This document shows positions 1 through 45,135 of a stretch of DNA of 45,135 bases, one piece after another. The stretch is taken from sequence record PQ178821.1, one strand, 5' to 3'. The number at the start of each line of letters is the position of its first letter. The first letter of the stretch is position 1. The notes below the pieces were generated by a model. The model saw only the letters and a list, made by a program, of their open reading frames with translations, did not search any database and was not told where the DNA came from. The translations under genes were made by a program, and so were the position numbers. The stretch is from Escherichia phage BMA1.

Positions 1-39
1 CAGCAGATAGCGATCAACTTTTTCATGCGCGTGATTAAT

Positions 40-2077: not shown

Positions 2078-2112
2078 AGTCCCAGTGAGATAAAACTTAC
2101 TGGGACTTTTTT
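2078..2112 (+). terminator. rho-independent terminator candidate
   Basis: AGTCCCAGT ... ACTGGGACT stem followed by TTTTTT. Confidence 0.55.
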
Positions 2113-3307: not shown

Positions 3308-3314
3308 ACAATCA

Positions 3315-3339
3315 AGCCCGGTATTATCCGGGCTTTTTA
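3315..3339 (+). terminator. rho-independent terminator candidate
   Basis: AAGCCCGG ... CCGGGCTT stem plus TTTTT. Confidence 0.5.
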
Positions 3340-4758: not shown

Positions 4759-4784
4759 AGCCCGCCGATTTGGTGGGCTTTTTT
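4759..4784 (+). terminator. rho-independent terminator candidate
   Basis: AGCCCGCC / GGTGGGCT stem followed by TTTTTT. Confidence 0.5.
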
Positions 4785-9744: not shown

Positions 9745-9856
9745 CCCGTCTGCAGACCCCGACGAGGATTTGATGATTGACGTGAAAAATATGGAATGCG
9801 GGGCGAAGCTAAGGGCGCAGGTGCTGGAGTTGCAGCAAATAATTAAGGGGCCGTAA
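9617..9856 (+). CDS. o-spanin (Rz1-like outer-membrane lipoprotein, 79 aa)
   Basis: Signal peptide with lipobox LSAC, Pro-rich mature part; starts inside the Rz-like ORF in a different frame and extends beyond it. Confidence 0.6.
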   Translation: MLNMLRALTALIVVLMLSACGSSNVPLMPLTESALRPPCKFDSPSADPDEDLMIDVKNMECGAKLRAQVLELQQIIKGP

Positions 9857-9868
9857 TGGCCCCTTTTT
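9847..9868. terminator. bidirectional terminator candidate between convergent genes
   Basis: GGGGCC gtaat GGCCCC stem with T-run on + side; sits between + spanin genes and - strand cassette. Confidence 0.6.
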
Positions 9869-10674: not shown

Positions 10675-10989
10675 TTAGTTGAATTTGATGTTGCCACCGG
10701 TGGAAGTTAAGCGGGCACATACAGCTTCAACGGCATCGACGCACATGAAATCGTTAAAGGCTTCGACCAGGGCGTTTATGAAAGATGCCGGAACCAGGCC
10801 GCAAGCCGGATTATCGAATGTAGCGGAGTTGATCGCCGCTTTTGCCGCTTCAGAAGCATTCATGCTCTGGCACAGATTCAGCGCTTCCGCGTTACGCATT
10901 GCGTGAAAGGTAAAGGTATTCGCTACGGTAGCTTTATTGAAACGGGCCATTGCGGCGTCTACTGGAGTTGCTACGGTCATGTTAGTCAT
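10675..10989 (-). CDS. hypothetical protein (105 aa from ATG 10989)
   Basis: ORF upstream of the 254-aa gene on - strand, AAGGA RBS; intercistronic GGGGC-GAAA-GCCCC hairpin at 10652..10665. Confidence 0.5.
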   Translation of the reverse strand: MTNMTVATPVDAAMARFNKATVANTFTFHAMRNAEALNLCQSMNASEAAKAAINSATFDNPACGLVPASFINALVEAFNDFMCVDAVEAVCARLTSTGGNIKFN

Positions 10990-11017
10990 TTTGTTTTCCT
11001 TCATATCTCTGTTGGTG

Positions 11018-11041
11018 TGCAACCAATATACTGCAACCAAC
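11018..11041 (-). promoter_or_regulatory. Two direct ATTGGTTGC-type motifs (reverse orientation) upstream of - strand cassette
   Basis: TGCAACCAAT at 11018..11027 and TGCAACCAAC at 11032..11041. Confidence 0.4.
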
Positions 11042-11143
11042 ATACGCAACGCAAGCGAATTTTGCGATTATTTTTATCGCTGATAATATTAAGGCGTGAA
11101 GTCAAGCGGGTGGCCCGCTTTGCCACAATCCCAGGGGGATAGC

Positions 11144-11848
11144 ATGAAACTTACTAAAGCAGAATATGACGCGTTGCCGGAAGGTATGAAGGCGCTTTTT
11201 GTTGCCGATGGTGACGGGTATAAATCAACGTTCATGACCGCAGAAGAAGTACAGGCGGAAATCAAGGGTCTGAAAGACAACAACGCGAAGCTGGTGAGCG
11301 AGAAGAAAGCAGAAGCCGAACGCCGCGCCGAAGCTGAGCGCCTTGCGAAAGAGAAAGAGGAGGCCGCCGCGCGCAAAAATGGCGACCTCGAAGCGATCGA
11401 CAAGTCCTGGAAAGATAAGTTTGCGAAACACGAAGCAGACACATCGGGAAAAATCGAAGCCTACCGCAAGCAGATCCACGATCTAACCATCGGCAGCGCT
11501 GCCAAAGACCTGGCGTCGAAGCTGTTCGGTAAGAATGCGGGAATCATGCAACGCCACGTAATGGACCGCCTGACGCTGGAAGACGGCGAAGACGGCAGCT
11601 TGAAAGTGCGTGTCTTGCAGGATGGTAAACCGTCCGCGCTGACTATGGAAGAGCTTGAAAAAGAGTTCCGTAATAACGCCGATTTTGCGTCCGTCCTGGC
11701 TGGCACGCCAGCCGGTGGCGCGCCTAGCAAACCGACGCAGGTTGTCGAAGATGTGAAGTCGAAAATCACTATGGGCCATAGCTTCGGCATCACTGACCTT
11801 ACGAAACAGGCGGGAGATATCATCGCGAAGATGGGCGACGACGAGTAA
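11144..11848 (+). CDS. scaffolding protein candidate (234 aa)
   Basis: Ala/Glu/Lys-rich coiled-coil-like sequence (AEAERRAEAERLAKEKEEAAARK); directly upstream of capsid gene; GGGGA RBS. Confidence 0.6.
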   Translation: MKLTKAEYDALPEGMKALFVADGDGYKSTFMTAEEVQAEIKGLKDNNAKLVSEKKAEAERRAEAERLAKEKEEAAARKNGDLEAIDKSWKDKFAKHEADTSGKIEAYRKQIHDLTIGSAAKDLASKLFGKNAGIMQRHVMDRLTLEDGEDGSLKVRVLQDGKPSALTMEELEKEFRNNADFASVLAGTPAGGAPSKPTQVVEDVKSKITMGHSFGITDLTKQAGDIIAKMGDDE

Positions 11849-11852
11849 GCAG

Positions 11853-11878
11853 ATCGCCCGCGAAAGCGGGCGATTTTG
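11853..11878 (+). terminator. hairpin / partial terminator after scaffold gene
   Basis: ATCGCCCGC gaaa GCGGGCGAT followed by TTTT. Confidence 0.45.
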
Positions 11879-11945
11879 CGAGCGCGGAAATCTAAGGTAA
11901 CATTAACGTCACTGGGCGAATGCTCACAACTCAAAGGATTTCGAT

Positions 11946-13040
11946 ATGTCTTTAACAGTGTTCCAGCGTAAACTCGTTACCGCGGTTACGCAAATGATCC
12001 CCGACAACCTGAACGTTTTCAACGCTGCCGCCAATGGCGCTGTTGTTCTCGGTACTGGTGAAGTGCTGAAGGATGTTGTAGAAAAAATGTCCGTAGGCTT
12101 GATCGCCAACCTTGTTACCGACCGTAACGCCTACGCCCCTGTCGGTACTCCGGCAACCGCTAAAGTGCTGGCGCGTATGCTGACCAACTCGGTTAACCTT
12201 TCCGCAAAAGTGGGTCCGGTAGCAATCACTAAGGCCATGATGGCTAAGATCGAAACCAACGTTAACAGCGTTGCGGCTGAGATTGCGGCACAGGCTACTC
12301 AAGCGATTATGCTGCATTACCTGAAAGCAGGTATCGGCGCAAGTAAAGCGGCGATCGAGAGCAACGAAGAGGCAAAATACACCCAACCGGCGCGCGTTGA
12401 CGGCGTTGGCGGTCGAACCTTCCCGACCCTCGCAGACTTCCCGCTGGCGGCGTCCAAGTTCGGCGATCAGGCGTCTTTAATTAAATCCTGGTTTATGGAC
12501 GGCGTTACCTGGGCAAACTTCATTGCATACCAGGCGCTCCCGTCTGCCGAGCAGGTATTCGCGATCGGCGATCTGCAGGTAATGGGCGATGGCCTGGGCC
12601 GCCGTTTCATTATCTCCGATGCCGCTGCCGATGCAATGGGTGCGGGTAAAATGTTGGGGCTGGTCCCTGGCGCGGTTGCAGTTACCACCAACGGCCTTGA
12701 TATGCTGGCGCAGGAAAAAGGCGGTAACGAGAACATTGAGCGCTGGTGGCAGGGCGAGTTCGACTTCAACGTGGCTGTTAAAGGCTATCGTCTGAAGGCG
12801 TCCGCTCGTACGCCGATCGAAGGTGTACGCTCGTTCAAGCTGTCCGACATCACCACTTCCGATAACTGGGAACTGGACCAGGGCCAGGTAGACAACGCAC
12901 CGGCAACCGTGCAGGACGTTGGCGGCGATAGCGATACTAAAGGCCGCCGCCGTACGCAGACCGCGCAGGCAGTGCCTACCCGTAACATTAAGGAAACCGC
13001 GGGCGTACTGGTTACGCTGACTGCGACTACCGCGTCTTAA
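11946..13040 (+). CDS. major capsid protein (364 aa)
   Basis: Size and position after scaffold and before head-tail genes; followed by strong terminator. Confidence 0.75.
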   Translation: MSLTVFQRKLVTAVTQMIPDNLNVFNAAANGAVVLGTGEVLKDVVEKMSVGLIANLVTDRNAYAPVGTPATAKVLARMLTNSVNLSAKVGPVAITKAMMAKIETNVNSVAAEIAAQATQAIMLHYLKAGIGASKAAIESNEEAKYTQPARVDGVGGRTFPTLADFPLAASKFGDQASLIKSWFMDGVTWANFIAYQALPSAEQVFAIGDLQVMGDGLGRRFIISDAAADAMGAGKMLGLVPGAVAVTTNGLDMLAQEKGGNENIERWWQGEFDFNVAVKGYRLKASARTPIEGVRSFKLSDITTSDNWELDQGQVDNAPATVQDVGGDSDTKGRRRTQTAQAVPTRNIKETAGVLVTLTATTAS

Positions 13041-13058: not shown

Positions 13059-13084
13059 GGGCGGGCTTATGCCCGCCTTTTTTA
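13059..13084 (+). terminator. rho-independent terminator
   Basis: GGGCGGGC ttat GCCCGCC followed by TTTTTT. Confidence 0.6.
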
Positions 13085-15892: not shown

Positions 15893-15915
15893 GGGGCCGT
15901 ACTGGCCCCTTTTTT
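15893..15915 (+). terminator. rho-independent terminator
   Basis: GGGGCC gtact GGCCCC followed by TTTTTT. Confidence 0.6.
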
Positions 15916-15931
15916 ATTGGAGAATACTACA

Positions 15932-16294
15932 ATGGCTAAAGCACCACTTTTCACACTTGACCCTAAGCCTACCTTTAAGCTGCCGATTGAGATCCCGCGC
16001 CCAGGCGAAAACGAACCGGGCAAAATGACGTTTACAGTACGCCACCGCCCTATCGACGAATTTTCGCAGACCATGCAGGACACGGAGCGCAAGTTGTCGG
16101 AATATGATGACAATGACCCGGACGGCTTTAACGTTATGGTCGAGGCCATCATGCACGTCGCAGAAGGCTGGAATCTGCCAGACGAATTTAACGCGGAGAA
16201 CGTCCGCCGCCTGGTGGTCAACTATCCGCGCGCGTTCGGCGTGTTCCACACTTCGTACTATCTCGAACTGATGGGATTGCGTGAAAAAAACTAA
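15932..16294 (+). CDS. tail assembly chaperone (lambda G-like)
   Basis: Small acidic ORF between major tail and tape measure, ending at a poly-A slippery site. Confidence 0.75.
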   Translation: MAKAPLFTLDPKPTFKLPIEIPRPGENEPGKMTFTVRHRPIDEFSQTMQDTERKLSEYDDNDPDGFNVMVEAIMHVAEGWNLPDEFNAENVRRLVVNYPRAFGVFHTSYYLELMGLREKN

Positions 16295-16608
16295 TTGAGG
16301 CGGCGCGACGCTTTTATGGCCCGCCGCCACCCTCCGAAGATTTAGCCGCTAGTTTATGGGGTGCGGCCCCCGAAGATGTTTGTCCGCCTGTTGCGCTATG
16401 GCCTGACAACGCGAAGATAGTCGCAGTATTCACAGATTGCTCCACGCAATGGCGCACCGGATTTGGTGGCGCATACGGCATCGACTACGGCGTGCTGGAG
16501 TGGTTATTTAAGATGCACGGTATCGAAAACGAGCAGCGCGCGTTTAAAGATATCAAGCTAATGGAACGCATCGCGCTTGATGAAATGGCGCAGCAGAACC
16601 CCGCATAG
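15932..16608 (+). CDS. tail assembly chaperone -1 frameshift fusion (GT-like)
   Basis: Slip at A_AAA_AAC (16285..16291) continues in -1 frame as KKLIEAARRFYGPPPP... to TAG at 16606..16608. Confidence 0.65.
16285..16291 (+). other. programmed -1 ribosomal frameshift slippery heptamer A_AAA_AAC
   Basis: XXXYYYZ heptamer in zero frame of the chaperone gene, 4 nt before its stop; -1 frame stays open for ~105 codons. Confidence 0.6.
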
Positions 16609-16610
16609 TG

Positions 16611-16929
16611 AAGCGGGACAGGCGGGACGTCCCGTTTTGTCCCGCCTCTGTAAAACCACATATCTAATCACTTTTATTGCATAAACTCAAAGCGGGACAG
16701 GCGGGACGTCCCGTTTTGTCACACCCTGTAAATGTGCATACCTATGCAGATTTCGTGCATAAACCAAACGGGACAAAAAGCGGGACAAACACGAGGCGGG
16801 ACAAAGCGGGACAGCACCCCGTCCCCGCCAGTGCTGCCGCGGTTTTTAGCCGATCGGGACAGCGGGACAGCACCCCAGTCTTTCAGACTAGACGGGGGTC
16901 AATGGCCCCCCTCGTCTGAGACTGAATAA
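16611..16929. repeat. GCGGGACA iteron array with tandem ~76-bp subunits and terminal hairpin (copy 1)
   Basis: At least 9 GCGGGACA-like units; palindromes GCGGGACGTCCCG+TTTT at 16622..16638 and 16701..16717; 3' part near-identical to 44851..45025. Confidence 0.7.
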
Positions 16930-16992
16930 GGTTTGTTTTGAAATCGCTGATACAATATCCATCGGCAACTGCATAAAAAAGGGGACTGCATA

Positions 16993-19635
16993 ATGGCAGA
17001 TCAGGCAGCAGGCATCACGCTAAAGGCTGATGTTGCACAAATCAGAACGGCAAATACTGTGCTGGACTCCTTCGCACAGAAATCCGAGAACACAGAAAAC
17101 AAGGTTAAGAAATTAAACGACACCCTCGGCAAATCCAAAAAGGTGACGAGTGACGCCGCGGGCGGAATGGAAAAGCTGGCGAATGAATCGCAGCGCGCCG
17201 CCGATGGCATGACGAAACAGGAGCGACTTGCCAACAGGTTAGGAATGTCGACCAAAAACCTGGGCTTTGCCTCGCGTAACGCCGCATTCCAGTTACAGGA
17301 TATCGCAGTTACGCTTGAGATGGGGATGCCTGTTCACCGCGTCATGCTTCAGCAGCTACCGCAGCTAACTGGGGCGTTCGGTGGACTGGGTAACACGCTG
17401 CGTTATGTTGCGGGCTTCCTCGGGCCAGTAGGGATCGGCCTTGCCGCCGTAACGGCAACGTTAGGCGTGGGAGTGGCAATTACGTCCCGCGCAGAGAACC
17501 AGGTCGCCGCGCTTAACAAGACGCTGGCACTTTCCGGTAACATTTCCGGCCTGACGGCAAACCAGATCCTGGTGCTATCCGAGAACGCAGAGCGCATGGG
17601 CGGGTCGTTCCGCAAGACGCGTGACACAATCCAGGCGCTGGCGGCGGCTGGTGTGAAAGCGGGTGCGGACTTCGGCGCACTGGCGAAGGTGGTGAATGAC
17701 TTCTCGAAGGTGTCCAGCCAGCCGATCGAAGATGTGGTCGCGGCGGTGGCGAAGCTGTCAACCGACCCGGTAGGCGGCTTGCGCGCACTGGCGGATAAGT
17801 ATCACGTTGTAAACGAAGCGCAGATCCAGCAGGTACAATCCCTGGTGGATATGGGTCGTGAGACTGAAGCGGTTGCGTTGGCTAACAAAACCGCCGCCGC
17901 GTCGTTCACCACTATGACCAACGATATCAAGGCGAACATGGGTACGCTTGAGCGTTCTATGAACGTCGTCACATCGGCAGCTAAATCCATGTGGGACGCC
18001 ATCCTGGATGTGGGTCGCGCGCAGTCCTCCAATGAGTCAGAGATGAAAGCGCGTGAATCCTTGCAGCGCATGACCACTGCTTACTATGCCGAGATGAAAG
18101 CGGTAAACGCTGCCGGTGGGGTTATGACCGAAGCGCAGAAAGCACGTATTAACATGCTTTACAGCGAACTGGTCGCCCAGGAAAAGGTAGTGGCGTCGCT
18201 CACCCTGCGTAACCGTGCGGAGCGAGACAACGCCCGCGCCGCAGACGAATCCGCAAAGGCGAACGAGGAGGCCAACCGCACCGCCCGCGACCGCGCCGCG
18301 TTTGAAAAGGAGTACGCAACTAACGCGAAGAAGCGCGCCGACGAGATCGCCCGCCTCAATTTGCTTAATAAGCGCGGCGTTATTGATGAGAAAGAGCTTG
18401 CCGAGGCGGTGAAGCAGGTAAACGAGCGCTACAAAGACCCGGCCCCGAAGAAGGCCGCGGCAGTTCGAGTCGATGCCGGGCTGAAAATGCTGGAAGTCGC
18501 GCGAAGCGAATTAGCCCAGCTTCGTGAGTCTGGAAAGCAGATCGAAGCCAACGCATCGACGCAGACCCGCACGCAACGCGCGCAAGCGGCCCTAAACAAG
18601 CTGATCGCGGATAATGAGCAGTTAATCGCCGCAAGCAAAGAAAGAGCACTAACGGCAGCAGAGAAGCAGCAATTAGTCGAGTTCGGGCGCGTGAAGGAAG
18701 TCCGCGAGCAGATCGTCGAAGAAGCCAAATTGCTGGACGCGAAAGAGAAGCAGGTCAAGGCGCACGCGCAGATCGATGCCTTCGTTAAGAACCAGAACGC
18801 CGAGCTAAAAGCCACCGCTGCGGGCTATGCGCTTTCCACTCGCGAAGCGGCAAACCTGCGTGATGAATTGCAGCTAATTGACCGCCTGAAGCGGGTTGGC
18901 GCTAACGATACCGATATAGACAAGGCGGTGTCTAAGCTGCGTGAAGTGCAGGAAGCACAGACCGGTGCTAACGCCTCGCTATGGGATGGCTTCAGCCGCG
19001 GGCTTAAGGATAGTGTGGATGATATGGGTAACGGATATACGCAGATGACGTCGCTCACAAAATTCACGTTCAGCGCTATGCAAGACACGATGAACGAGTT
19101 TTTCGAGACGGGCAAGCTGAACGCAAAGGATATGGTTAAGTCCATCCTTAGCGAATTAATCAAGCTGGCTACCTCGCAGGCTTTCAAGTCGATCGTTAGC
19201 GCTTTCGGTGGCGACGGCGGCAAAAACGGATTGTTCGGCGCTATCTTCTCGGGCCTCACCAAGAATGCGGACGGCGGAGCGTACGCAGGAGGCAATCTCG
19301 CGGCCTATTCCGGGAAAGTGGTAAGCCAGCCTACCTTTTTCAGTTATGGCGTCCAGGCGTTCGCTAAGGGCGCTGGGTTGATGGGTGAGGCTGGACCCGA
19401 GGCCATCATGCCACTGAAGCGCGGGCCGGACGGGAAACTGGGCGTTGCCGCGTCTGGCGTAGGTGGGGGGATGGTCGTGACGACTAACGTTTACACGGGG
19501 ACCGGTAAAACGGATACCAGTGTCAGCGGGCCGGACCCCCGTACCGCGCAGGCGTTCGGCAAGCAAATCACCGAGGCGGTGAAGTCCGAGATCGTGAAGG
19601 CAACGAAACCGGGTGGTGTACTTTACAAACGATGA
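16993..19635 (+). CDS. tail tape measure protein (880 aa)
   Basis: Long Ala/Gln/Lys-rich helical protein downstream of G/GT chaperone genes. Confidence 0.9.
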   Translation: MADQAAGITLKADVAQIRTANTVLDSFAQKSENTENKVKKLNDTLGKSKKVTSDAAGGMEKLANESQRAADGMTKQERLANRLGMSTKNLGFASRNAAFQLQDIAVTLEMGMPVHRVMLQQLPQLTGAFGGLGNTLRYVAGFLGPVGIGLAAVTATLGVGVAITSRAENQVAALNKTLALSGNISGLTANQILVLSENAERMGGSFRKTRDTIQALAAAGVKAGADFGALAKVVNDFSKVSSQPIEDVVAAVAKLSTDPVGGLRALADKYHVVNEAQIQQVQSLVDMGRETEAVALANKTAAASFTTMTNDIKANMGTLERSMNVVTSAAKSMWDAILDVGRAQSSNESEMKARESLQRMTTAYYAEMKAVNAAGGVMTEAQKARINMLYSELVAQEKVVASLTLRNRAERDNARAADESAKANEEANRTARDRAAFEKEYATNAKKRADEIARLNLLNKRGVIDEKELAEAVKQVNERYKDPAPKKAAAVRVDAGLKMLEVARSELAQLRESGKQIEANASTQTRTQRAQAALNKLIADNEQLIAASKERALTAAEKQQLVEFGRVKEVREQIVEEAKLLDAKEKQVKAHAQIDAFVKNQNAELKATAAGYALSTREAANLRDELQLIDRLKRVGANDTDIDKAVSKLREVQEAQTGANASLWDGFSRGLKDSVDDMGNGYTQMTSLTKFTFSAMQDTMNEFFETGKLNAKDMVKSILSELIKLATSQAFKSIVSAFGGDGGKNGLFGAIFSGLTKNADGGAYAGGNLAAYSGKVVSQPTFFSYGVQAFAKGAGLMGEAGPEAIMPLKRGPDGKLGVAASGVGGGMVVTTNVYTGTGKTDTSVSGPDPRTAQAFGKQITEAVKSEIVKATKPGGVLYKR

Positions 19636-20270
19636 TAAAATGGCCCTCACTACAACGTGGGGGCTTTTTTATGTCACAAGGTACAATCACACTAACGAAC
19701 GGAAGTAAGACCGTCACGGGCGCGGGGACGGCGTTCCTGAGCGAGATTGGGAAGGTCCGCGTATTTGCCCACATCGACGGCAATGACTACACCGGAAAAA
19801 TTGCGGCATTCAACTCTAACACAGTCATCACCCTGGCTGATAACTGGGCAGGTCCGACAAAAGCCGGTGCGGCTTATGAGCTAATAGAAGCGCACGACCC
19901 GCGGTCAAACGAATGGCCTTATTACTGGCACATGCAATTGCAAGGCGGCGGAGACGTGCAGTTGGCTTTCCGGTCCGAGGAATTGCAGTTTGGTAACGGT
20001 TACGGTCAGAACATCGCGGACGGCCCGAACGCCGAAACGAAACAGTTCCCCGTGCAATTCATCGGACTGACTACTGACAAGTGGTGCGACCCTAAACTGG
20101 TTTACAACTTTCTTCGCGGTCACTTCGTCAAGCCGTTTGTTGTCACCGCGCCGGATGGCGAAACGGGTTTATTCGTGGTCGAGCGTTCGAGCTTGTCGTA
20201 CACTGACAACGGGCACTACACGGCAACGGTGTCCGCCACCCTTAAGACAGCTATTGGATTCGTAAGATGA
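19632..20270 (+). CDS. minor tail protein (lambda M-like position); alternative start ATG 19671
   Basis: ATGA overlap with tape measure stop; GC hairpin plus T-run at 19643..19670 lies inside the 5' end. Confidence 0.55.
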   Translation: MIKWPSLQRGGFFMSQGTITLTNGSKTVTGAGTAFLSEIGKVRVFAHIDGNDYTGKIAAFNSNTVITLADNWAGPTKAGAAYELIEAHDPRSNEWPYYWHMQLQGGGDVQLAFRSEELQFGNGYGQNIADGPNAETKQFPVQFIGLTTDKWCDPKLVYNFLRGHFVKPFVVTAPDGETGLFVVERSSLSYTDNGHYTATVSATLKTAIGFVR

Positions 20271-27153: not shown

Positions 27154-28893
27154 ATGGCAGCGGGTACTCTATCCGTAACGAATAACAGCAAGGCGGTTGT
27201 AGGGGTAGGCACAACGTTTACCGCGTTTAACGCTGGCGACTTCTTAACGCTGGTTGTAGGACAAGTCCCCTACACCGTGGCAATCGCGTCCATTGAAAGC
27301 GACACGTCGCTTACTCTGGTTCTGCCGTTCGACGGCCCAACGGCAACCGGCCTTGCGTGGGATGGCGTTAAGCGCGACACCATGTCCCTGGCAACTATGG
27401 GCGTGACCGTCCAGGCACAGAAAGCATTGCGCTTGATGATTGCGGATGAAAACAACTGGCGTGCAATCTTCGGCGACGCTGAAGAGATCACCATTACGCT
27501 GCCCAACGGGCAAGTTATGCAGGGTATGTCATGGGGCTATCTGTCGCAGTTGATGAAACAGATCGACCCCGTTGAGATGCGCAACCTGCAACAACAAGCC
27601 GCCGCATCGGAAGCAGCCGCGCAAGGATTTCGTAACGAGGCTGAAGGATTTCGAGACGGCGCGCAAGGATACCGCAACGAGGCGCTCCAATTCCGCACCG
27701 ACTGCGAAGGGCTGAAGAACGAAACGACAAACCTTCGCAACGATGCGCTCCAATTCCGCACCGACTGCGAAGGGCTGAAGAACGAAACGACAAACCTTCG
27801 CAACGATGCTAACACAGCTAAGACTGGCGCGGAGACGGCACGCGATCAGGCGCAGAACATCGCCGACGGTATGGACCCTGGCCAGTATATGCAGAAATCC
27901 GCAAACCTGAGCGATGTCGCTGATAAGGCGCAAGGCCGGGCGAATATGGGACTCGGCCCTACCGATGCCGTGGTGTTCGGAGGGGCTACCCTCAACGGTC
28001 CCTCGCGCGTCGACGGACCGCTGTTGCTCGGCAGGCAGCAGTGGGATGGGTCTAGCTGGGGGAGCTACGGACTACAATCGTCATTCGTCATCATGTCGCC
28101 GGATGGAGACTCCGAGCCGGGATTTTACATCAGGCCGCTATCGGGTGCGCCTGGGTACGCAACGTCGTTCACCTATAATCTCGCGATTAATCTTTTCAGC
28201 ACCGGTGCTCGCATCAAGGCGGTTAACTTCTCATCCAGCACTACGACTATGGGTTATAGCGAGATGTGGTCACGTGCATGTTTCCAGGGGCAGCCATACG
28301 ACGCCCAGGCGGGGGTTGAGAACTACCAATCGCTTGTCGCCGGTGCTTGCGGGACTATCGGACAGGGCTTTTACGGTGGCGTTGCGTTCGGCATGATGAC
28401 TTCTGGCAGGGCTGGGTGGCCTGTCGGTCAGATCTCGATCGGCGCACAAGACCGGGCGGCGGACGGCACTATCGGCCTGCAAATGCACTTCCGGTTTCAT
28501 TCATCCGGTAACATTACGTATACGGGGCCGGCGGGGTCGGGGTCATTCCAGCAAATCCCGGCATCTGACCGCAACATTAAGCATGATATTAAAGACGATA
28601 AATCCAGCACAGCATACGATAACATTCGAGCCATTCGATTCCGTAATTTCGTATTTAATGATGACGAGCAGGAGCGTATTCGTCGCGGGATTATCGCACA
28701 GGAGCTTGAAGAAATCGACCCGCTTTATGTTAAGCACCGCGAATACCACAACATGGAGCTTAACGGGCCGAAGATTACGCGACTGGAGCTTGACACGACG
28801 CCGCTGTTACTGGACACAATGCGAGCGTTGCAGGATACGATTAAGCAGGTGGAGGAGTTGAAGGCAGAGATCGCGGCGTTGAAGCAGGCGTAA
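27154..28893 (+). CDS. tail fiber protein with C-terminal S74-type intramolecular chaperone domain (579 aa)
   Basis: Heptad-like FRNEA/YRNEA repeats; SDRNIKHDI autocleavage-type motif near 28561; coiled-coil C-terminus. Confidence 0.85.
   Translation: MAAGTLSVTNNSKAVVGVGTTFTAFNAGDFLTLVVGQVPYTVAIASIESDTSLTLVLPFDGPTATGLAWDGVKRDTMSLATMGVTVQAQKALRLMIADENNWRAIFGDAEEITITLPNGQVMQGMSWGYLSQLMKQIDPVEMRNLQQQAAASEAAAQGFRNEAEGFRDGAQGYRNEALQFRTDCEGLKNETTNLRNDALQFRTDCEGLKNETTNLRNDANTAKTGAETARDQAQNIADGMDPGQYMQKSANLSDVADKAQGRANMGLGPTDAVVFGGATLNGPSRVDGPLLLGRQQWDGSSWGSYGLQSSFVIMSPDGDSEPGFYIRPLSGAPGYATSFTYNLAINLFSTGARIKAVNFSSSTTTMGYSEMWSRACFQGQPYDAQAGVENYQSLVAGACGTIGQGFYGGVAFGMMTSGRAGWPVGQISIGAQDRAADGTIGLQMHFRFHSSGNITYTGPAGSGSFQQIPASDRNIKHDIKDDKSSTAYDNIRAIRFRNFVFNDDEQERIRRGIIAQELEEIDPLYVKHREYHNMELNGPKITRLELDTTPLLLDTMRALQDTIKQVEELKAEIAALKQA
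27682..27807 (+). repeat. perfect in-frame tandem duplication (2 x 63 bp) inside tail fiber gene
   Basis: 27682..27744 identical to 27745..27807; encodes ALQFRTDCEGLKNETTNLRND twice. Confidence 0.8.
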
Positions 28894-39414: not shown

Positions 39415-40837
39415 TGCTTAAGTCCTCGTCAGTAGCTTCCGACCACGCAGGACGCGGGTCGTCGATCGGTGCTAACACCGGTTTTGCGGGTGCGCGTGTG
39501 ATTTTATCACACAGCTTAGCCCACACTTTCGGTTTTTCATCCTTCAGTACCTTCTCGGCATCCGTAGGGCTGAGCAATGTTTCTTTGTACATCACATCAC
39601 GCTTGATCCGGGCCTTCGTGAAGATTTCAATCACTTCGCTCTCGTCCGCCCACTTGCGGATCCCTTCCTTACCGGCAACCATCTTGAGGCCCAGCGATTC
39701 GCCGTCGCCCGCCATTACCGCCTTAAATACCGCGGACTCGATCGCTTTGATGTGCTGGCGCATTGCGTCCAGGCCTTCATAAGCCTTGCGCAATTCCGCA
39801 GCGCTCATAGCACCGGGGGCCGCTTCTTTCCTACCACGCTTCGCACGTCGTGCCGCCTTCCGGGCTTCGCGGGCCATATTGCGGTCATGGTTGGCGCATT
39901 CTTCCTCTGTTGCAATACTCACGTCGTCGCCCAGGTCTTCGTCGGTTGCCGTTGGTGGTGTCATCGTATCGATTGCGGCCTTCGCCCTGGCGCTACACTG
40001 ATCCGCAAATCGACACCACTGGCACGCATCAACGCTGGGGCGGAAGTCGGCACGGGTAAGCCCCTTCTTGCCTCGGGAATACGCCTCCAGTGCGGAAATA
40101 GCGCGCTTGGATGCAAACTTCGCGAATATCTCCAGGGCTTCTACCGTAATATCCCACTCCGACGCCCCGCCGCAATACGGCTGGAAGATAACCAGGCGCA
40201 CGGTCGTAATGTCGTACATAGTTTTCAGCTTGCGCAGCAGGCCGAGCGCATACAGCATGAGTTGTTTGTTTTCTTTCGCCTCGACCTTATGCCGCCCCGT
40301 CTTCAGGTCGCCAACAATCAGCATGTACGTGCCGTCGGTCTTCTTCATGACCATGACCATATCGGCAGTACCGAACGTCTTAACCCGGTTGCCGTCGATC
40401 TCGAATCCTGAATGAAGGACGCGGGTAAGATCGGCGCGCATCTCAAGCTGAACAAACTCCGCCACCTCGAGGAGTGGTCGCCAGTGGTCGATGTACGCGT
40501 CGCACTGTTTCACCATGTCGTCATTGACCAGTACGCCGCCTTTCGGCGCTTTCGGATGTGCCTTCACTGGCCCCTTGCCTTCGTTCTCGACGTAGCACCC
40601 TTTATACGTCTTTGCGGTTATCAGCTTTTCACCGGCGATAATGCGGTTTAGCACCACTTCAGATACGGTGTGCATACTCGTACCGTTAATCGCGGCTTGC
40701 CCGGATTCGTTCGGGATATCTTTTTCCACCACCAGGGCAGCAGGGCAACCCATCCACTTTTTAGCACCGGATGGACCGAGTAATGAATGTTCCGTATTAC
40801 TACCGGATTGTGTTTTGCGCTTCGGTTTAATCGCCAT
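39407..40837 (-). CDS. PD-(D/E)XK nuclease, DUF2800 / Cas4-like with Cys cluster (476 aa)
   Basis: HSLLGPSGAKKWMGCP N-terminus, GDLKTG...EAK nuclease-like motif, C-terminal CQWCRFADQC cluster. Confidence 0.6.
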   Translation of the reverse strand: MAIKPKRKTQSGSNTEHSLLGPSGAKKWMGCPAALVVEKDIPNESGQAAINGTSMHTVSEVVLNRIIAGEKLITAKTYKGCYVENEGKGPVKAHPKAPKGGVLVNDDMVKQCDAYIDHWRPLLEVAEFVQLEMRADLTRVLHSGFEIDGNRVKTFGTADMVMVMKKTDGTYMLIVGDLKTGRHKVEAKENKQLMLYALGLLRKLKTMYDITTVRLVIFQPYCGGASEWDITVEALEIFAKFASKRAISALEAYSRGKKGLTRADFRPSVDACQWCRFADQCSARAKAAIDTMTPPTATDEDLGDDVSIATEEECANHDRNMAREARKAARRAKRGRKEAAPGAMSAAELRKAYEGLDAMRQHIKAIESAVFKAVMAGDGESLGLKMVAGKEGIRKWADESEVIEIFTKARIKRDVMYKETLLSPTDAEKVLKDEKPKVWAKLCDKITRAPAKPVLAPIDDPRPAWSEATDEDLSNE

Positions 40838-42151: not shown

Positions 42152-42481
42152 ATGAATGTAAACGACGCAATCGAAATGTTAACTAAGACTGTTTGCAGTG
42201 AGACTAGCCGGTCCTGGGCGTATACCGATGCCGTGGGTGCGGTGCTATTTGAAATCGAACGTCTGCGACTTACCGAAAAAGAATTGCGCGCGAAGCTGGA
42301 ATTACTCAACGGTACGGCAGCCAGCAAGCTGCAAAAACACAATGAAGAAATGGAAGAATACAAAAAACAGGTTATCCGTCTACGTGAGGAAGGTAAATCC
42401 TGGGCGATGATTGCCGAGTTGACCGGAATTAATCAGAGCACAGTGCGCTCCTGGGTACGCAATAATAAAACTTCTAAGTAA
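42152..42481 (+). CDS. HTH DNA-binding protein (109 aa)
   Basis: C-terminal SWAMIAELTGINQSTVRSWV helix-turn-helix-like segment; first gene of rightward operon. Confidence 0.6.
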   Translation: MNVNDAIEMLTKTVCSETSRSWAYTDAVGAVLFEIERLRLTEKELRAKLELLNGTAASKLQKHNEEMEEYKKQVIRLREEGKSWAMIAELTGINQSTVRSWVRNNKTSK

Positions 42482-42491
42482 GGCCACGGCA

Positions 42492-44756
42492 ATGAGCTTA
42501 ATTAAATTCGCTGTAACAAGACCCGCTAAAAAAGGCGAAAAAGCCAGGGCGGAAAACTTCCAGATGACGACCGATGAATTTTTCGAATTTATCAAAGATG
42601 CGAAAGAGATATCGTCGGTGCATATCAACAAGACGGAAGATAAAGCCGAGTATGCGCGCCGCAAGCGTAAGGCCGATGGCATCGTAGCGTATACCTGTGA
42701 CGGCTTACGCCGCAAGACCAGTGCGGTGGACCGCTCGATCCTGTTCTTCGATATTGACCGTACCGACACCCGCACCCTACGCCGCTGCCGTAAGGCTTTC
42801 ATCGACGCGGGGCTGGAGCACGTATTTCACACCACAACCGGCGACCGCCACCCGCTGAAAGGCGGCACGCGTTGCGCTCGATTCCTGGTACTCACGGACA
42901 AGCCTGTACCGGCTGAAGACCTGGGCCGTGTCCAGTATGCGCTATTACACCAACTTGGTCTGTCAGATGTGGACTTCGACGATTGCACGAAAGACACAAA
43001 CCGCCTGATGTACCTGCCACACCAGCAGTCTGTTATTAAGTGCCACTACGGCAAGCGTGCCCGCGTCCGTCGTCTGCTTCGCCTGGCGGATAAGTTGGGC
43101 GTGGAGAAGGAGGAAGTACGCCGCGAGCTTACCCAGGGCGACGACGCAGTGGCAGACGGCATTCTGGACTGGTGCTTCCAGGCAGGATTCGAGGAGTTAT
43201 CTTCCGGTCGTGGTTATGAAGTGCCGTGCCCTAACGAACATCTGCACAGCGGCGAAGGGTCCACCGCTATCATGGTTAAGGATGGCGAGATCCGTTTCAA
43301 GTGTATGCACACCGGCAACGAGTGTTGCTCGGAACTGAACAGACACCAGCACCTGGCGCTACGTCTTATCGGGATCCCGGACCACCTGAACGTCGAACCG
43401 CACAATATGTCACGTAAGCAAATCGCCGCCATCCTTCCAGGACTGGACGACGAGGAAGTGGAATCGTGCTATGCGCATATCGTTGATGCGGTCGGAGACG
43501 GCGACGAGTACGGCGGATGTACGGACGCAGACCTGGACAACGAGCCGGTTGCCCTGTTCAGTAAGCACGACCCGATCATCGAGGGGTTGATTAACTTTAA
43601 ATCGACCTGGTATATGGCGGGCGAGTCGAACATCGGTAAATCGTTCTACGTGCTGGGGCAAATGGGCGCTGTTGCCGCCGGTATTCCGTTCGGTGGTGCG
43701 AAGGTTGTCCAGTCGCATTGCTTCTATTTCGATGCGGAAGGTGGCGAAGCCTCCAACCAGCGTAAGGAAGCATTGCAGATTAAATATGAGCACGACCTGG
43801 ACAAGCTGCACATTATCGACCTGCAATCACGCGGCTGGGATATCACCAGCAAATCCGGCTTGCGTGAAGTTATCAGCTTCATCAACCGCACCGCTAACGG
43901 CGAACCGGTTGGCCTGGTGGCGTTCGACTCACTCAACCAGACTGTTGCGTTGCGGTCCGCCGATGCTAAACCGTTCGACGAGAACAACGCCAGCGATATG
44001 GGCGAAGTGGTCAAGGCGCTGAAGGCCATTGCGGAAAACACAGGCGGCAGTGCGGGAGTCATCCACCACCCGGCTAAAGGTGCAAACGGCAGCAGAACCC
44101 CCCGCGGATCCGGCGCGCTGCATGGTGCTGTTGATTCTGCTTTCTTCCTGGAGCAACCAGACGACAACCAGCCCGGACAATTGAACCTGTATCATGAGAA
44201 GTCTCGTAACGGCATCAAGCAAGCGCCGCGCGGCTTCGTCCTGCTCAAGTGCAAGGTTAAGGTGGATCTCCGCAAGTCCGAGGCGTTCGAATCACACCAG
44301 TCCACCAGCGCCGGGCCTGACTTCGGCGATGTGGTTGCCGGTTGGGACGTCAAGCCAATTGCCTCCACGCCACGCGACGAGACGCTTTACCTCGTACCGG
44401 TCGCCCTGGCACCGTTCGCCATCGAACAGGCGAAGGCGGCGGGCAAGACCGCAGTTAAGGAAGAGAACGCCGCAGGCCCGCGCAACGAAAAAGAGAAAGT
44501 GCTTTATGCAGCGCTGGAAAAACTGATGGAAGATAACCCGGACCATACCGGATTCAGTAAATCGGCAATTGTCCGCCAGGCGGGATTGGCAAAAGGTGGC
44601 ACATCGACGAAGGCAATAGACGATATGGTCGAGCGCGGCGTGCTTGGGTTTTACACAGACCCACACACCGGGGCCATCTATGGGTCGTCTAATATCGTCA
44701 TCAAAACGAATATACCCATCACGCTTTCGGCGACCGATGACGACCTGAAAGATTAA
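42492..44756 (+). CDS. primase-helicase fusion (754 aa)
   Basis: N-terminal FFDIDRTD primase-type acidic motif; central Walker A GESNIGKS; size similar to phage primase-helicases. Confidence 0.8.
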   Translation: MSLIKFAVTRPAKKGEKARAENFQMTTDEFFEFIKDAKEISSVHINKTEDKAEYARRKRKADGIVAYTCDGLRRKTSAVDRSILFFDIDRTDTRTLRRCRKAFIDAGLEHVFHTTTGDRHPLKGGTRCARFLVLTDKPVPAEDLGRVQYALLHQLGLSDVDFDDCTKDTNRLMYLPHQQSVIKCHYGKRARVRRLLRLADKLGVEKEEVRRELTQGDDAVADGILDWCFQAGFEELSSGRGYEVPCPNEHLHSGEGSTAIMVKDGEIRFKCMHTGNECCSELNRHQHLALRLIGIPDHLNVEPHNMSRKQIAAILPGLDDEEVESCYAHIVDAVGDGDEYGGCTDADLDNEPVALFSKHDPIIEGLINFKSTWYMAGESNIGKSFYVLGQMGAVAAGIPFGGAKVVQSHCFYFDAEGGEASNQRKEALQIKYEHDLDKLHIIDLQSRGWDITSKSGLREVISFINRTANGEPVGLVAFDSLNQTVALRSADAKPFDENNASDMGEVVKALKAIAENTGGSAGVIHHPAKGANGSRTPRGSGALHGAVDSAFFLEQPDDNQPGQLNLYHEKSRNGIKQAPRGFVLLKCKVKVDLRKSEAFESHQSTSAGPDFGDVVAGWDVKPIASTPRDETLYLVPVALAPFAIEQAKAAGKTAVKEENAAGPRNEKEKVLYAALEKLMEDNPDHTGFSKSAIVRQAGLAKGGTSTKAIDDMVERGVLGFYTDPHTGAIYGSSNIVIKTNIPITLSATDDDLKD

Positions 44757-44812: not shown

Positions 44813-44850
44813 GTGTAGTGTAAATATAATGAATAGTTATGCAATAAAAC

Positions 44851-45025
44851 TGCATAAACTAAGCGGGACAAAAAGCGGGACAGACAAGGGGCGGGACAAA
44901 GCGGGACAGCACCCCCGTCCCGCCCCGGATGGCGCGGCCTGGCGAGGAGCGGGACAGCGGGACAGCACCCCAGTCTTTCAGACTAGACGGGGGTCAATGG
45001 CCCCCCTCGTCTGAGACTGAATAAA
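44851..45025. repeat. GCGGGACA iteron array with terminal hairpin (copy 2)
   Basis: About 85% identical to 16756..16929 overall; last ~75 bp identical, including the imperfect hairpin. Confidence 0.7.
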
Positions 45026-45135
45026 ATCCGGGGATTGCAAAATACACGGCAGCATGTTGCGAAGTGCGGTCGCGGATGAACTAGGCAACCAATGCGGGTT
45101 GCATTATGCGGAGTGAAAAACGCAGTTTGCAGATT

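What the first reader, a model, noticed from the sequence alone, without database searches (positions are those of the whole stretch)
16611..16929. 320-bp noncoding iteron/hairpin element between the GT chaperone and the tape measure gene
In lambda-like tail modules the tape measure gene normally follows the G/GT genes directly. Here there is a 384-bp gap (16609..16992) holding two tandem ~76-bp subunits, each with a GCGGGACGTCCCG palindrome plus TTTT (16622..16638 and 16701..16717), then at least five direct GCGGGACA repeats and an imperfect extended hairpin (about 16876..16924). Terminator-like palindromes inside a late operon, followed by repeated protein-binding-like sites, suggest a regulatory or replication element rather than spacer DNA.
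Basis: seen in the sequence. Interest (0 to 1): 0.7.

Follow-up and report, generated by a model that had tools for sequence, protein, structure and literature searches.

The report
Second copy of phage replication-origin module
The 384-bp gap before the tape-measure gene is real noncoding DNA and is a duplicate of the repeat-and-hairpin element that follows the phage's primase-helicase gene, so it is most likely a second replication-origin-type binding site for that enzyme rather than a terminator or spacer.

Summary
The window is a Dhillonvirus (HK578-like coliphage). The gap 16609-16992 holds two 79-bp tandem units, 13 CGGGAC cores and a 49-nt hairpin.

All 158 Dhillonvirus records hold at least two copies. 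Eiauvirus eiAU-183 has the same two-site layout with its own repeats. Klebsiella phage 37P2 also has two copies, the second in its head-gene region.

In about ten related lineages the DNA after the helicase stop keeps the same architecture, but each lineage has its own 7-8-nt iteron. The helicase ends in a confidently modelled winged-helix domain. Two helicases 95-97% identical elsewhere are only 45% identical in that domain and carry different iterons.

This matches SaPI Pri-Rep origins (winged-helix helicase, iterons after the gene) and the SPP1 oriL/oriR pair. The best reading is a second origin-type site for the self-loading primase-helicase. No binding or replication data exist.

The terminator reading fails because the T-runs are not conserved. 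RNA-level regulation and a packaging role remain possible. This is a new member of a known kind, of moderate interest.

The parts
16285..16608 (+). T-frame (DUF1799-type) part of the tail assembly chaperone. Its stop codon is the left edge of the gap.
   Evidence: Translation is open from 16285 to the stop at 16606-16608. G is 15917-16294 with Pfam Phage_TAC_4 at 1.7e-23. The homologous gp16 in SO-1 and HK578 is annotated DUF1799.
16611..16689 (+). Tandem subunit 1. It holds an iteron palindrome, GCGGGACA-GGCGGGAC | GTCCCG-TTTT-GTCCCGC (16613-16645), then an AT-rich stretch ending in TGCATAAAC.
   Evidence: D1, D2, I16, I21. DNA fold -12.9 kcal/mol, z = -3.75. GC is 0.33-0.38 at 16640-16699 against a genome value of 0.545.
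16690..16768 (+). Tandem subunit 2. It holds iterons 16692-16699 and 16701-16707, an inverted iteron at 16708-16713, and an AT-rich stretch. That stretch carries the 14-bp palindrome TGCATACCTATGCA (16735-16748) and TATGCA-N7-TGCATA (16743-16761).
16756..16929 (+). Core module shared with copy B. It has four direct iterons (16769-16775, 16780-16787, 16796-16803, 16806-16813). Hairpin 1 (16795-16829) is closed by an inverted iteron. A variable spacer follows, then iterons 5-6 (16855-16861, 16862-16869) and hairpin 2.
   Evidence: Self-blastn gives 174 nt at 88% to 44851-45024, E = 1.6e-59. The alignment of 24 copies is.
16876..16924 (+). Hairpin 2. The lower stems CAGTC/GACTG and CAGAC/GTCTG are invariant in all 24 Dhillonvirus copies. 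The G5/C5 apical stem is kept and the apical loop varies.
   Evidence: Folds. Conservation. Homologous hairpins occur in other lineages, with a covarying 5-bp stem and a constant loop.
16948..16993 (+). Right flank. It holds TGATACAAT (extended -10-like, 16948-16956), CGGCAAC (16963-16969), two ACTGCATAA repeats (16968-16976, 16985-16993), the Shine-Dalgarno AAGGGG and the tape-measure ATG at 16993.
   Evidence: D5. CTGATACAAT is conserved in all 9 A copies. Promoter function is inferred only; the consensus scan did not call it.
44851..45024 (+). Copy B of the core module, 95 bp after the primase-helicase stop. Iterons are at 44863, 44875, 44891, 44901 (inverted at 44917), 44949 and 44957. Hairpin 2 is at 44971-45019.
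   Evidence: Hairpin 1 DNA fold -15 kcal/mol.
44815..44862 (+). AT-rich segment in front of copy B (GC 0.23-0.35). It holds TGAATAGTTATGCA (44830-44843) and TATGCA-N7-TGCATA (44838-44856).
   Evidence: The motif GAATAGTTATGCA recurs in the same place in distant lineages that have different iterons.
42492..44756 (+). Primase-helicase gene (754 aa). The proposed iteron-binding winged-helix domain is encoded by about 44484-44753.
   Evidence: PHROG 'replicative helicase-primase' and Pfam AAA_25 at 2.4e-19. The C-terminal 90 aa model has pLDDT 83 with an H-H-H-beta-beta order. All 50 top Foldseek hits are winged-helix DNA binders.
1..18 (+). Window start CAGCAGATAGCGATCAAC, which is the headful pac terminus. 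It lies 111 bp 3' of copy B. This is context, not part of copy A.
   Evidence: The PhageTerm terminus 28168 (reverse) of Dhillonvirus BF9 (PMC10059673 supplement) falls on the same sequence.

Best explanation
The gap element (copy A) duplicates the iteron-type replication-origin module that lies directly after the primase-helicase gene (copy B).

Proposed mechanism. The 754-aa primase-helicase binds the GCGGGACA iterons through its C-terminal winged-helix domain. It loads itself at the adjacent AT-rich DNA. The invariant hairpin 2 then forms on the unwound strand and serves as a loading or priming signal.

Proposed role of copy A. It lies 17/28 kb from copy B inside the tail operon and carries more iterons, which flank two AT-rich stretches. 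It therefore acts either as a second origin or, like SPP1 oriR, as a tightly bound site that stalls forks and helps the switch to concatemer synthesis.

What is shown: the anatomy, the duplication, its conservation, the winged-helix fold, and the co-variation of that domain with the iterons.

What is inferred: binding, unwinding, priming, and what copy A does that copy B does not.
For: 1. Duplication. The 174-bp core is duplicated in the same orientation. It is present at least twice in 158 of 158 Dhillonvirus records.

2. Conserved layout. eiAU-183 has paralogous repeat clusters after its helicase gene and in its chaperone/tape-measure gap. 37P2 has two copies with iteron TTGCGAGT.

3. Lineage-specific iterons. 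In IMG/VR relatives the 500 bp after the helicase stop keeps the layout but uses GCGGGACA, TTGCGAGT, GGGGAGA, TCCGACA, AGGGATA, CGGACAA or GGGGATG.

4. Co-variation. L060 and L050 helicases are 95/97/95% identical in the N-terminal, core and linker parts but 45% in the C-terminal domain, and their iterons differ. At DNA level there are two diverged blocks, the winged-helix coding part and the iterons plus hairpin. A conserved island separates them. The residues after the invariant GG at the start of helix 3 track the iteron type.

5. Fold. The C-terminal domain is a winged helix.

6. Origin-like anatomy. AT-rich troughs are flanked by iterons in both orientations.

7. Precedents. SaPI Rep/PriRep origins (PMC9371898). 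SPP1 oriL/oriR (PMC6316719 and PMC3485210).
Against: There is no experimental datum on binding or replication start for any of these phages.

The winged-helix coding region and copy B are physically adjacent. Part of the co-variation could therefore be hitch-hiking in one recombination tract.

Both copies are co-oriented with transcription, so an RNA role is not excluded.

Most related lineages manage with a single copy, so copy A is not needed for basic replication.

Copy B has no GCGGGACA iterons on the left of its AT-rich stretch, unlike SaPI origins.

GC skew follows gene orientation only and says nothing about origins.

The pac terminus lies 111 bp from copy B, so a packaging role for part of the module is conceivable.
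Confidence: 0.55

Rival explanations
1. Transcription or RNA-level control element. The module is transcribed with the long + strand operon, and its hairpins act in the RNA as a processing or stability signal, an attenuator, or an antitermination signal of the nut/put type. A promoter (TGATACAAT) at its right edge would re-start transcription for the tape-measure and tail-tip genes.
For: Both copies have the orientation of the surrounding genes in every genome checked. The late operon has several strong intrinsic terminators downstream of copy B. The RNA fold has z = -3.6. The small hairpin covaries with a constant loop, which indicates a single-stranded form. CTGATACAAT is conserved in all A copies. 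In Kagunavirus-like loci hairpin 2 is followed by a U-rich TTATTCATT.
Against: No Rfam family matches, even at E = 10. The hairpin stems are Watson-Crick on both strands, so there is no strand signal. Repeated 8-mers that track a DNA-binding domain of the helicase are not explained by this reading. In Dhillonvirus hairpin 2 is followed by AATAA, not a U-run. In Kagunavirus-like loci the strong sigma-70 promoter of the next operon lies 60-100 bp beyond the module, so the module is not that promoter.
Confidence: 0.2
2. Packaging element. The module is recognised by the small terminase as part of the pac signal or as a packaging enhancer.
For: The PhageTerm pac terminus of BF9, which is also window coordinate 1, lies 111 bp from hairpin 2 of copy B. 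The GenBank records of UAE_MI-01, Maverick and eiAU-183 are linearised inside copy A. The P1 pac site likewise consists of short repeats flanking the cut (own knowledge).
Against: PhageTerm found only one significant terminus in BF9 and none near its copy A at 11822-12001. Related lineages keep the module next to the helicase gene, not next to the terminase gene. The iterons track the helicase domain. Record breaks inside copy A can be explained by assembly breaking at a long stretch that looks identical in A and B by eye (not measured).
Confidence: 0.08
3. Pair of intrinsic terminators plus spacer. The GC palindromes with TTTT would stop transcription after the chaperone genes to lower tape-measure expression.
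For: CGGGACGTCCCG followed by TTTT occurs twice. The HK578 record annotates a rho-independent terminator at the equivalent place.
Against: The T-run is not conserved (GATCT, GCTTT, GATCG in SO-1, HK578, JL1 and UAE_MI-01), while the inverted iterons are. The scan finds no + strand terminator in the gap. This reading explains neither the second copy nor the iteron array.
Confidence: 0.05
4. Small protein-coding gene. ORF 16732-16929 (65 aa) or ORF 16677-16919 (80 aa) would be translated, as annotated in some records.
For: Oekolampad gp18 and several other records annotate a hypothetical protein over the core.
Against: Single-base indels occur between close relatives inside the ORF. The same sequence in copy B sits in a different context. 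Conservation is highest in the iterons and hairpin stems and shows no codon pattern.
Confidence: 0.02

Closest known systems
SaPI / PICI Pri-Rep replication origins (self-loading helicases; PMC9371898)
   Same: The helicase, fused to a primase in SaPI5, has a C-terminal winged-helix domain that reads short iterons. Six to twelve iterons lie immediately downstream of the gene. An AT-rich segment sits among them and iterons occur in both orientations. Specificity differs between elements.
   Different: The helicase core here is AAA_25/RepA-like; I did not test whether it is homologous to SaPI Rep. The iterons are 7-8 nt. A conserved 49-nt hairpin and an ARG-box-like pair belong to the module. 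A second copy lies inside the tail operon. The host is a virulent siphophage, not a satellite.
Bacillus phage SPP1 oriL / oriR (PMC6316719, PMC3485210)
   Same: There are two similar elements made of direct repeats plus AT-rich DNA. One is at the initiator gene. The other is in a noncoding segment that interrupts the conserved virion-gene order. The second is proposed to bind the initiator and stall forks, triggering the theta-to-sigma switch.
   Different: The SPP1 initiator gp38 is a separate origin-binding protein working with a loader and a DnaB-type helicase. oriL lies inside gene 38. No conserved hairpin is described there.
Satellite phage P4 ori / crr with the alpha primase-helicase (own knowledge, not checked here)
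   Same: One polypeptide combines primase, helicase and a C-terminal winged-helix origin-binding domain. It binds octamer iterons at two separate sites, and crr is itself a tandem duplication.
   Different: The P4 helicase belongs to a different superfamily. The P4 alpha origin-binding domain was not among the 50 best structural matches. ori and crr are 4.5 kb apart, not in a tail operon.
RSF1010 oriV (iterons + AT-rich + ssiA/ssiB hairpins; RepA/RepB'/RepC; own knowledge)
   Same: The helicase is RepA-type (Pfam AAA_25; weak PDB sequence hit to RepA). An iteron array, an AT-rich stretch and a sequence-specific hairpin are arranged in series.
   Different: RSF1010 has three separate proteins where this phage has one. 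It has two ssi hairpins on opposite strands, whereas here there is one long hairpin. A priming role for the hairpin is untested.
Lambda nut / HK022 put antitermination sites
   Same: A duplicated structured element lies in the direction of transcription, upstream of terminator-containing operons.
   Different: Arrays of direct 8-mers have no counterpart in those sites. There is no Rfam match. The repeats track a DNA-binding domain of the helicase.

Membership tests
Iteron origin of a self-loading winged-helix helicase (SaPI Pri-Rep type) | Array of 6-12 short direct repeats (iterons) | tested here: met
   There are 13 CGGGAC cores in copy A and 7 in copy B. GCGGGACA occurs 16 times against 1.9 expected.
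Iteron origin of a self-loading winged-helix helicase (SaPI Pri-Rep type) | Array lies immediately downstream of the helicase ORF | tested here: not met
   This is met for copy B, 95 bp after the stop, and in about ten related lineages. It is not met for copy A, the finding itself, which lies between the chaperone and tape-measure genes.
Iteron origin of a self-loading winged-helix helicase (SaPI Pri-Rep type) | AT-rich segment with iterons on both sides, in opposite orientations | tested here: met
   Copy A has inverted iterons at 16629-16645, an AT-rich stretch at 16646-16690 (GC 0.33-0.38) and direct iterons from 16692. The pattern repeats once. Copy B has GCGGGACA iterons on the right side only.
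Iteron origin of a self-loading winged-helix helicase (SaPI Pri-Rep type) | Helicase carries a C-terminal winged-helix domain | tested here: met
   The AlphaFold model of the last 90 aa has pLDDT 83 and pTM 0.71. The top 50 Foldseek PDB hits are all winged-helix DNA binders, with prob 0.77-1.0 and E 0.02-0.14.
Iteron origin of a self-loading winged-helix helicase (SaPI Pri-Rep type) | Iteron sequence and winged-helix domain change together between elements | tested here: met
   L060 vs L050 show 95-97% identity in the body and 45% in the domain, with iterons GGGGAGA vs CGGACAA. Helix-3 motifs track the iteron type. The DNA identity profile shows two diverged blocks. Caveat: the domain and copy B are physically linked.
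Iteron origin of a self-loading winged-helix helicase (SaPI Pri-Rep type) | Protein binds the iterons and replication starts there | not testable with these tools
   This needs a gel shift or footprint, plus marker-frequency or 2D-gel mapping.
SPP1-type origin pair (oriL/oriR) | Two similar repeat-plus-AT-rich elements, one at the initiator gene and one in the late region | tested here: met
   The same holds in eiAU-183 and 37P2.
SPP1-type origin pair (oriL/oriR) | Initiator homologous to gp38, with a separate loader and a DnaB-type helicase | not tested
   No direct comparison with gp38 was made. The candidate initiator here is a fused primase / RepA-like helicase, so homology is unlikely.
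Intrinsic (rho-independent) terminator | GC-rich hairpin followed by a conserved U-run on the transcribed strand | tested here: not met
   There is no + strand call in the gap. The T-run is not conserved among Dhillonviruses. Hairpin 2 is followed by AATAA.
Described structured RNA families (Rfam 15) | Match to a covariance model | tested here: not met
   There is no hit at gathering score in the window. Only chance-level miRNA-type hits appear at E up to 10. No tRNA or tmRNA was found.
ArgR operator (pair of ARG boxes) | Two 18-bp boxes with core TGAATwwwwATTCA, 3 bp apart | tested here: inconclusive
   Kagunavirus-like loci carry TGAATAGTTATGCA-N7-TGAATAGTTATGCA with the canonical spacing. 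The window has one good box per copy: 44830-44843, and 16735-16748 as TGCATACCTATGCA. The second box is degenerate. The consensus is from memory, with one example in PMC12219000. The degenerate pattern is not rarer than chance in the window overall.
pac site of a headful phage | Fixed packaging terminus at or next to the element | tested here: not met
   BF9's only significant PhageTerm terminus maps 111 bp from copy B. None is near copy A.

The most novel reading that the evidence does not exclude
The module is a composite origin not described before, with three working parts:
- a single polypeptide (primase, RepA-like helicase, winged helix) reads lineage-specific iterons;
- it uses a conserved structured hairpin on the unwound strand as its loading or priming signal;
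- it recruits host ArgR through a canonical pair of ARG boxes as an architectural factor, as in ColE1 cer.

The copy in the tail operon would be a programmed fork trap that times the switch to concatemer synthesis, and so to late gene dosage and packaging.

The very abundant CGGCA(G/A)C word, one copy of which follows every hairpin 2, would be the primase start signal.
Probability: 0.1. Interest if true: 0.7.

Novelty: new member of a known kind. Interest (0 to 1): 0.45.

Why it matters
Dhillonviruses are common coliphages used in defence-system and therapy work (BASEL and SECphi collections), yet I found nothing published on their origins of replication.

If the reading is right, it gives two precise candidate cis-acting sites and the protein domain that reads them. 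It also offers a natural set of about ten helicase-domain/iteron specificities for studying how self-loading helicases recognise DNA.

It would further provide a Gram-negative counterpart of the SPP1 oriL/oriR arrangement, in which the proposed fork-stalling switch from theta to concatemer replication could be tested.

On the practical side, the element should not be annotated as a gene or a terminator. Its long stretch shared between the two copies probably breaks short-read assemblies.

Tried and rejected
- Rfam at gathering and at E = 10, and tRNA/tmRNA search: nothing.
- Sigma-70 and terminator consensus scans: no + strand site in the gap.
- GC skew: follows gene orientation only, so it is uninformative for origins.
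- Coding reading: rejected on frame-breaking indels.
- DnaA box (TTATNCACA), IHF, Fis, CRP, sigma-54, Xer/dif core, CsrA GGA motifs and G-quadruplex: compared by eye with consensus sequences from memory. None fits in all lineages; 37P2 iterons are not G-rich.
- Exact 7-mer cluster search in Jerseyvirus LPSE1 and Kagunavirus fEg-Eco19, where the helicase is on the opposite strand: found no such array.
- Structure prediction of the C-terminal domain from a single sequence: useless, pLDDT 45.
- Homologue search with the C-terminal 155 aa alone: one hit only.
- Profile search of that domain against PDB sequences: only an odd multi-repeat hit to the TALE-like protein BurrH. Pfam gave nothing.
- Literature searches for Dhillonvirus origins, repeats or transcriptomes: no study of this element.
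- pac hypothesis for copy A: rejected on the BF9 PhageTerm data.

Full report
**What the window is.** blastn of 16300-17300 finds 158 phage records at 83-98% identity, almost all Escherichia or Shigella phages of the genus Dhillonvirus (HK578-like siphophages). The 45,135-bp window is about one whole genome.

The gene order is:
- an early divergent promoter region near 42.1 kb;
- an HTH gene (42152-42481);
- the primase-helicase gene (42492-44756);
- about 480 bp of noncoding DNA that runs over the window ends;
- small genes, lysis genes, terminase, head and tail genes on the + strand to about 28.9 kb;
- replication genes on the - strand.

**Checking the observation.**
- The T-frame chaperone ORF stops at 16608 and the tape-measure ATG is at 16993.
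- Two tandem units of 79 bp, not 76, start at 16611 and 16690. Each opens with a palindrome built from iterons, GCGGGACA-GGCGGGAC|GTCCCG-TTTT-GTCCCGC.
- GCGGGACA occurs 16 times in the window against 1.9 expected, with 7 in the gap. Thirteen CGGGAC cores lie in 16614-16868.
- The hairpin 16876-16924 folds as RNA and as DNA. Shuffled controls give z = -3.7 for the DNA hairpin and z = -3.6 for the 180-nt RNA that contains it.
- The region is in all related genomes, so it is not an assembly artefact.
- One-base indels between close relatives rule out translation of the small ORFs that some records annotate there.

Self-blastn shows that the right-hand 174 bp (16756-16929) recur at 44851-45024 with 88% identity. 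That second site is 95 bp after the primase-helicase stop codon and has the same orientation.

Every one of the 158 records holds at least two places matching this core. In the seven genomes where both copies were located (window, Oekolampad, SO-1, HK578, LM40P1, JL1 and UAE_MI-01) the two copies are co-oriented; Maverick looks the same from its unsplit hits.

The RefSeq record of Sodalis phage SO-1 already marks the two places as repeat 'region A' and 'region B' with sequence similarity. Its note ends 'possible ...' and is cut off in my copy. I found no paper that discusses them.

**Anatomy from 24 aligned copies.** The shared module consists of, in order:
1. An AT-rich stretch with a 14-bp palindrome, TGAATAGTTATGCA or TGCATACCTATGCA, and TATGCA-N7-TGCATA.
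2. Four direct iterons (G/A)CGGGACA, spaced 12, 16 and 10 bp apart.
3. An inverted iteron that closes hairpin 1.
4. About 30 variable bases.
5. Two more iterons.
6. Hairpin 2. Its lower stems are invariant in all 24 copies, while the apical loop varies.

The T-runs after the palindromes of the two A-specific units are not conserved, but the inverted iterons are. This argues against terminators. Copy A has more iterons than copy B, and they flank two AT-rich troughs of GC 0.33-0.45. Copy B has one trough of GC 0.23.

**Relatives outside the genus.** The primase-helicase has homologues at 35-50% identity in Guernseyvirinae and Eiauvirus.

- Klebsiella phage 37P2 has a two-copy element with a different 8-mer, TTGCGAGT, and a long hairpin whose sequence differs between the copies but still pairs. 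One copy follows the helicase gene and the other lies between head genes.
- Salmonella phage St162 has one copy after the helicase gene, with iteron GGGGAGA.
- A scan of IMG/VR with a helicase alignment gave 42 loci. In most, the 500 bp after the stop codon show the same layout with lineage-specific iterons: GCGGGACA, TTGCGAGT, GGGGAGA, TCCGACA, AGGGATA, CGGACAA, GGGGATG. In eiAU-183 the GCAACCA repeats may instead match the Dhillonvirus TTGGTTGC motif, and its TCGCCCCG repeats are the other iteron candidate.
- Some blocks do not depend on lineage. These are the pair GAATAGTTATGCA-N7-GAATAGTTATGCA, GTTGCCGA, TTATTCATT, and CACGGCA(G/A)CAAAG after hairpin 2.
- A small 5-bp stem directly after the last iteron pair covaries between lineages while its loop stays constant: TCATC-TAAC-GATGA, TCCTC-TAAC-GAGGA, AGTCT-TAAC-AGACT, CTCCT-TAG-AGGAG, AGTCT-TTC-AGACT. 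RNAalifold counts compensatory changes in three of its five pairs. This indicates a structure formed in single-stranded nucleic acid, either RNA or unwound DNA.
- Edwardsiella phage eiAU-183 has a 1116-bp gap between its T chaperone and tape-measure genes. That gap carries the same GCAACCA and TCGCCCCG repeats as its post-helicase gap, plus a hairpin like the apex of hairpin 2.

The chaperone/tape-measure location of the second copy therefore predates the split between Dhillonvirus and Eiauvirus, and both copies follow the lineage's own repeats. The other lineages searched have one copy per genome.

**Who reads the iterons.** The last 90 residues of the primase-helicase are its most divergent part. 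With a 21-sequence alignment they model confidently (pLDDT 83) as helix-helix-helix-beta-beta. All 50 best PDB matches are winged-helix DNA-binding domains: MarR-type regulators, histone H1/H5, the ORC2 C-terminus and DnaD-N.

Helicases from L060 (iteron GGGGAGA) and L050 (iteron CGGACAA) are 95%, 97% and 95% identical in the N-terminal, core and linker parts. They are 45% identical in this domain.

The DNA identity profile runs as follows:
- 80-93% through the helicase body;
- 33-60% over the domain-coding end;
- back to 75-78% over the GAATAGTTATGCA pair;
- 37-50% over the iterons and hairpin 2;
- 68-87% beyond them.

Two diverged blocks separated by a conserved island fit co-adaptation better than one hitch-hiking tract. 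The residues at the start of helix 3, after an invariant GG, track the iteron type. For example, GGDRYKIL and GGGRYAAL go with the similar iterons GGGGAGA and GGGGATG.

An invariant acidic tail (DDDLxD) ends the protein, which recalls the polymerase-contact tail of T7 gp4 (own knowledge).

**Comparison with known systems.** SaPI Rep/PriRep proteins are self-loading helicases. Their C-terminal winged-helix domain reads 5-6-nt iterons. Six to twelve of these lie immediately downstream of the rep gene, around an AT-rich centre, and they differ between islands (PMC9371898). Copy B and its relatives fit this description feature by feature at sequence level.

SPP1 has oriL at its initiator gene and a similar oriR in a noncoding segment that interrupts the virion genes. 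Initiator bound at oriR is proposed to stall forks and trigger the switch to concatemer synthesis (PMC6316719 and PMC3485210). Copy A resembles oriR in position and make-up.

P4 ori/crr and RSF1010 oriV (iterons, AT-rich DNA and priming hairpins, with a RepA helicase of the same Pfam family) are further analogues that I cite from memory.

**Rivals.** An RNA-level role is not excluded. Both copies are transcribed in the sense direction, the late operon contains strong terminators, the small hairpin covaries, and CTGATACAAT, an extended -10-like motif, is conserved before the tape-measure gene. That reading does not explain arrays of 8-mers that track a DNA-binding domain, and there is no Rfam match.

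A packaging role was considered for two reasons. The PhageTerm terminus of Dhillonvirus BF9 (28168, reverse; headful, P1 type) falls exactly on the sequence with which the window begins, 111 bp after copy B. Three records are also linearised inside copy A. However, BF9 shows no terminus near its copy A. A long stretch that looks identical between A and B when searches are compared by eye (not measured) is a sufficient reason for assemblies to break there.

The terminator and coding readings fail the conservation tests.

**Verdict.** The best-supported mechanism is a second origin-type binding array for the self-loading primase-helicase (confidence 0.55). Shown: anatomy, duplication, conservation, winged-helix fold and co-variation. 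Inferred: binding, unwinding, priming and fork control.

It is a new member of a known kind (an iteron origin of a winged-helix helicase, in an SPP1-like pair). The hairpin and the ARG-box-like pair are unexplained extras. Interest is moderate.

Noticed in passing
window 1-18 and 45025-45135: The window starts exactly at the sequence (CAGCAGATAGCGATCAAC) where PhageTerm places the single fixed headful (pac, P1-type) terminus of Dhillonvirus BF9. The pac cut is therefore 111 bp after copy B and about 4.8 kb upstream of the small terminase gene.
   Followed up: yes
window, whole; e.g. 16963-16969, 45047-45053: CGGCAGC and CGGCAAC are the two most frequent 7-mers of the genome, at 52 and 47 copies on both strands against about 5.5 for a random word. 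They occur in all reading frames and orientations, and 17 are intergenic. The same words top the lists in SO-1, HK578, 37P2 and St162, and one copy follows hairpin 2 in every lineage. Codon bias is not excluded, and a primase start signal is speculation.
   Followed up: partly
window 41/72, 11019/11033, 30127/30139, 31800/31817, 39138/39154, 44769/44804, 45085: TTGGTTGC occurs 18 times against 2.2 expected. Most copies are in pairs in intergenic regions, often where a -35 box would sit. It looks like a phage promoter or operator motif. It flanks copy B but is absent from copy A, and the same word (GCAACCA) forms the arrays in eiAU-183.
   Followed up: partly
window 44830-44843 and 16735-16748; L049, L050, L060 just after the helicase stop: TGAATAGTTATGCA resembles an ARG box (TGAATwwwwATTCA). 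In Kagunavirus-like loci two copies lie 7 nt apart, which is the canonical spacing of ArgR operators. It is conserved across lineages whose iterons differ. The consensus is taken from memory.
   Followed up: partly
L003 (NC_013600.1) 11214-11597 and 40178-40657: The SO-1 RefSeq record already annotates both elements as repeat regions A and B with mutual similarity. Its note ends 'possible ...' and is cut off in my copy.
   Followed up: partly
L014 (UAE_MI-01) ends; L016 (Maverick) ends; L063/L064 (eiAU-183) ends: Three GenBank records are linearised inside copy A. UAE_MI-01 is cut within hairpin 2. Maverick carries a ~125-bp terminal overlap there. eiAU-183 is cut inside its GCAACCA array. This is probably assembly breakage at a long stretch that looks identical in A and B by eye, but a physical end was not excluded for eiAU-183.
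   Followed up: partly
L002 11533-11697; L065 991-1245 (BF9 28290-28544); several rows: Many records annotate 'hypothetical protein' ORFs across copy A or copy B. Frame-breaking indels show these are not genes.
   Followed up: yes
window 44484-44753 (helicase residues ~665-754): A profile of the winged-helix domain hits the TALE-like repeat protein BurrH (E = 1e-24, summed over about 20 weak repeat hits; GFSKSAIVRQAGLAKGG vs GFSQSDIVKIAGNIGG). This is probably a generic helix-GG-helix resemblance. The protein also ends in an invariant acidic tail, DDDLxD.
   Followed up: no
window 2078-2107, 3314-3335, 4759-4779, 9845-9865, 13059-13078, 15893-15909, 19642-19665: A series of strong intrinsic terminator-like hairpins lies on the + strand, after the small-gene block, before terS, after the spanins, after the major capsid gene, after the tail-tube gene and after the tape-measure gene. 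The long late operon must therefore be read through or re-started.
   Followed up: no
20 rows MG065648.1 and OQ221563.1: Records named 'Campylobacter phage A144' (35 kb) and 'Acinetobacter phage NJ01' are 93-98% identical to E. coli Dhillonviruses over this region. The host labels are probably wrong, or the samples were contaminated.
   Followed up: no
L004 (37P2) 1605-1864 and 10945-11216: In Klebsiella phage 37P2 the second copy of the element lies between the head-morphogenesis and spanin genes, not before the tape-measure gene. Second copies have therefore arisen or moved more than once.
   Followed up: partly
window 16285-16608: The T-frame ORF is open from 16285 but has no start codon until 16492. 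It overlaps the end of G (stop at 16292-16294) in the -1 frame, as expected for frameshift-only expression. Several records annotate only a 96-bp fragment of it.
   Followed up: partly
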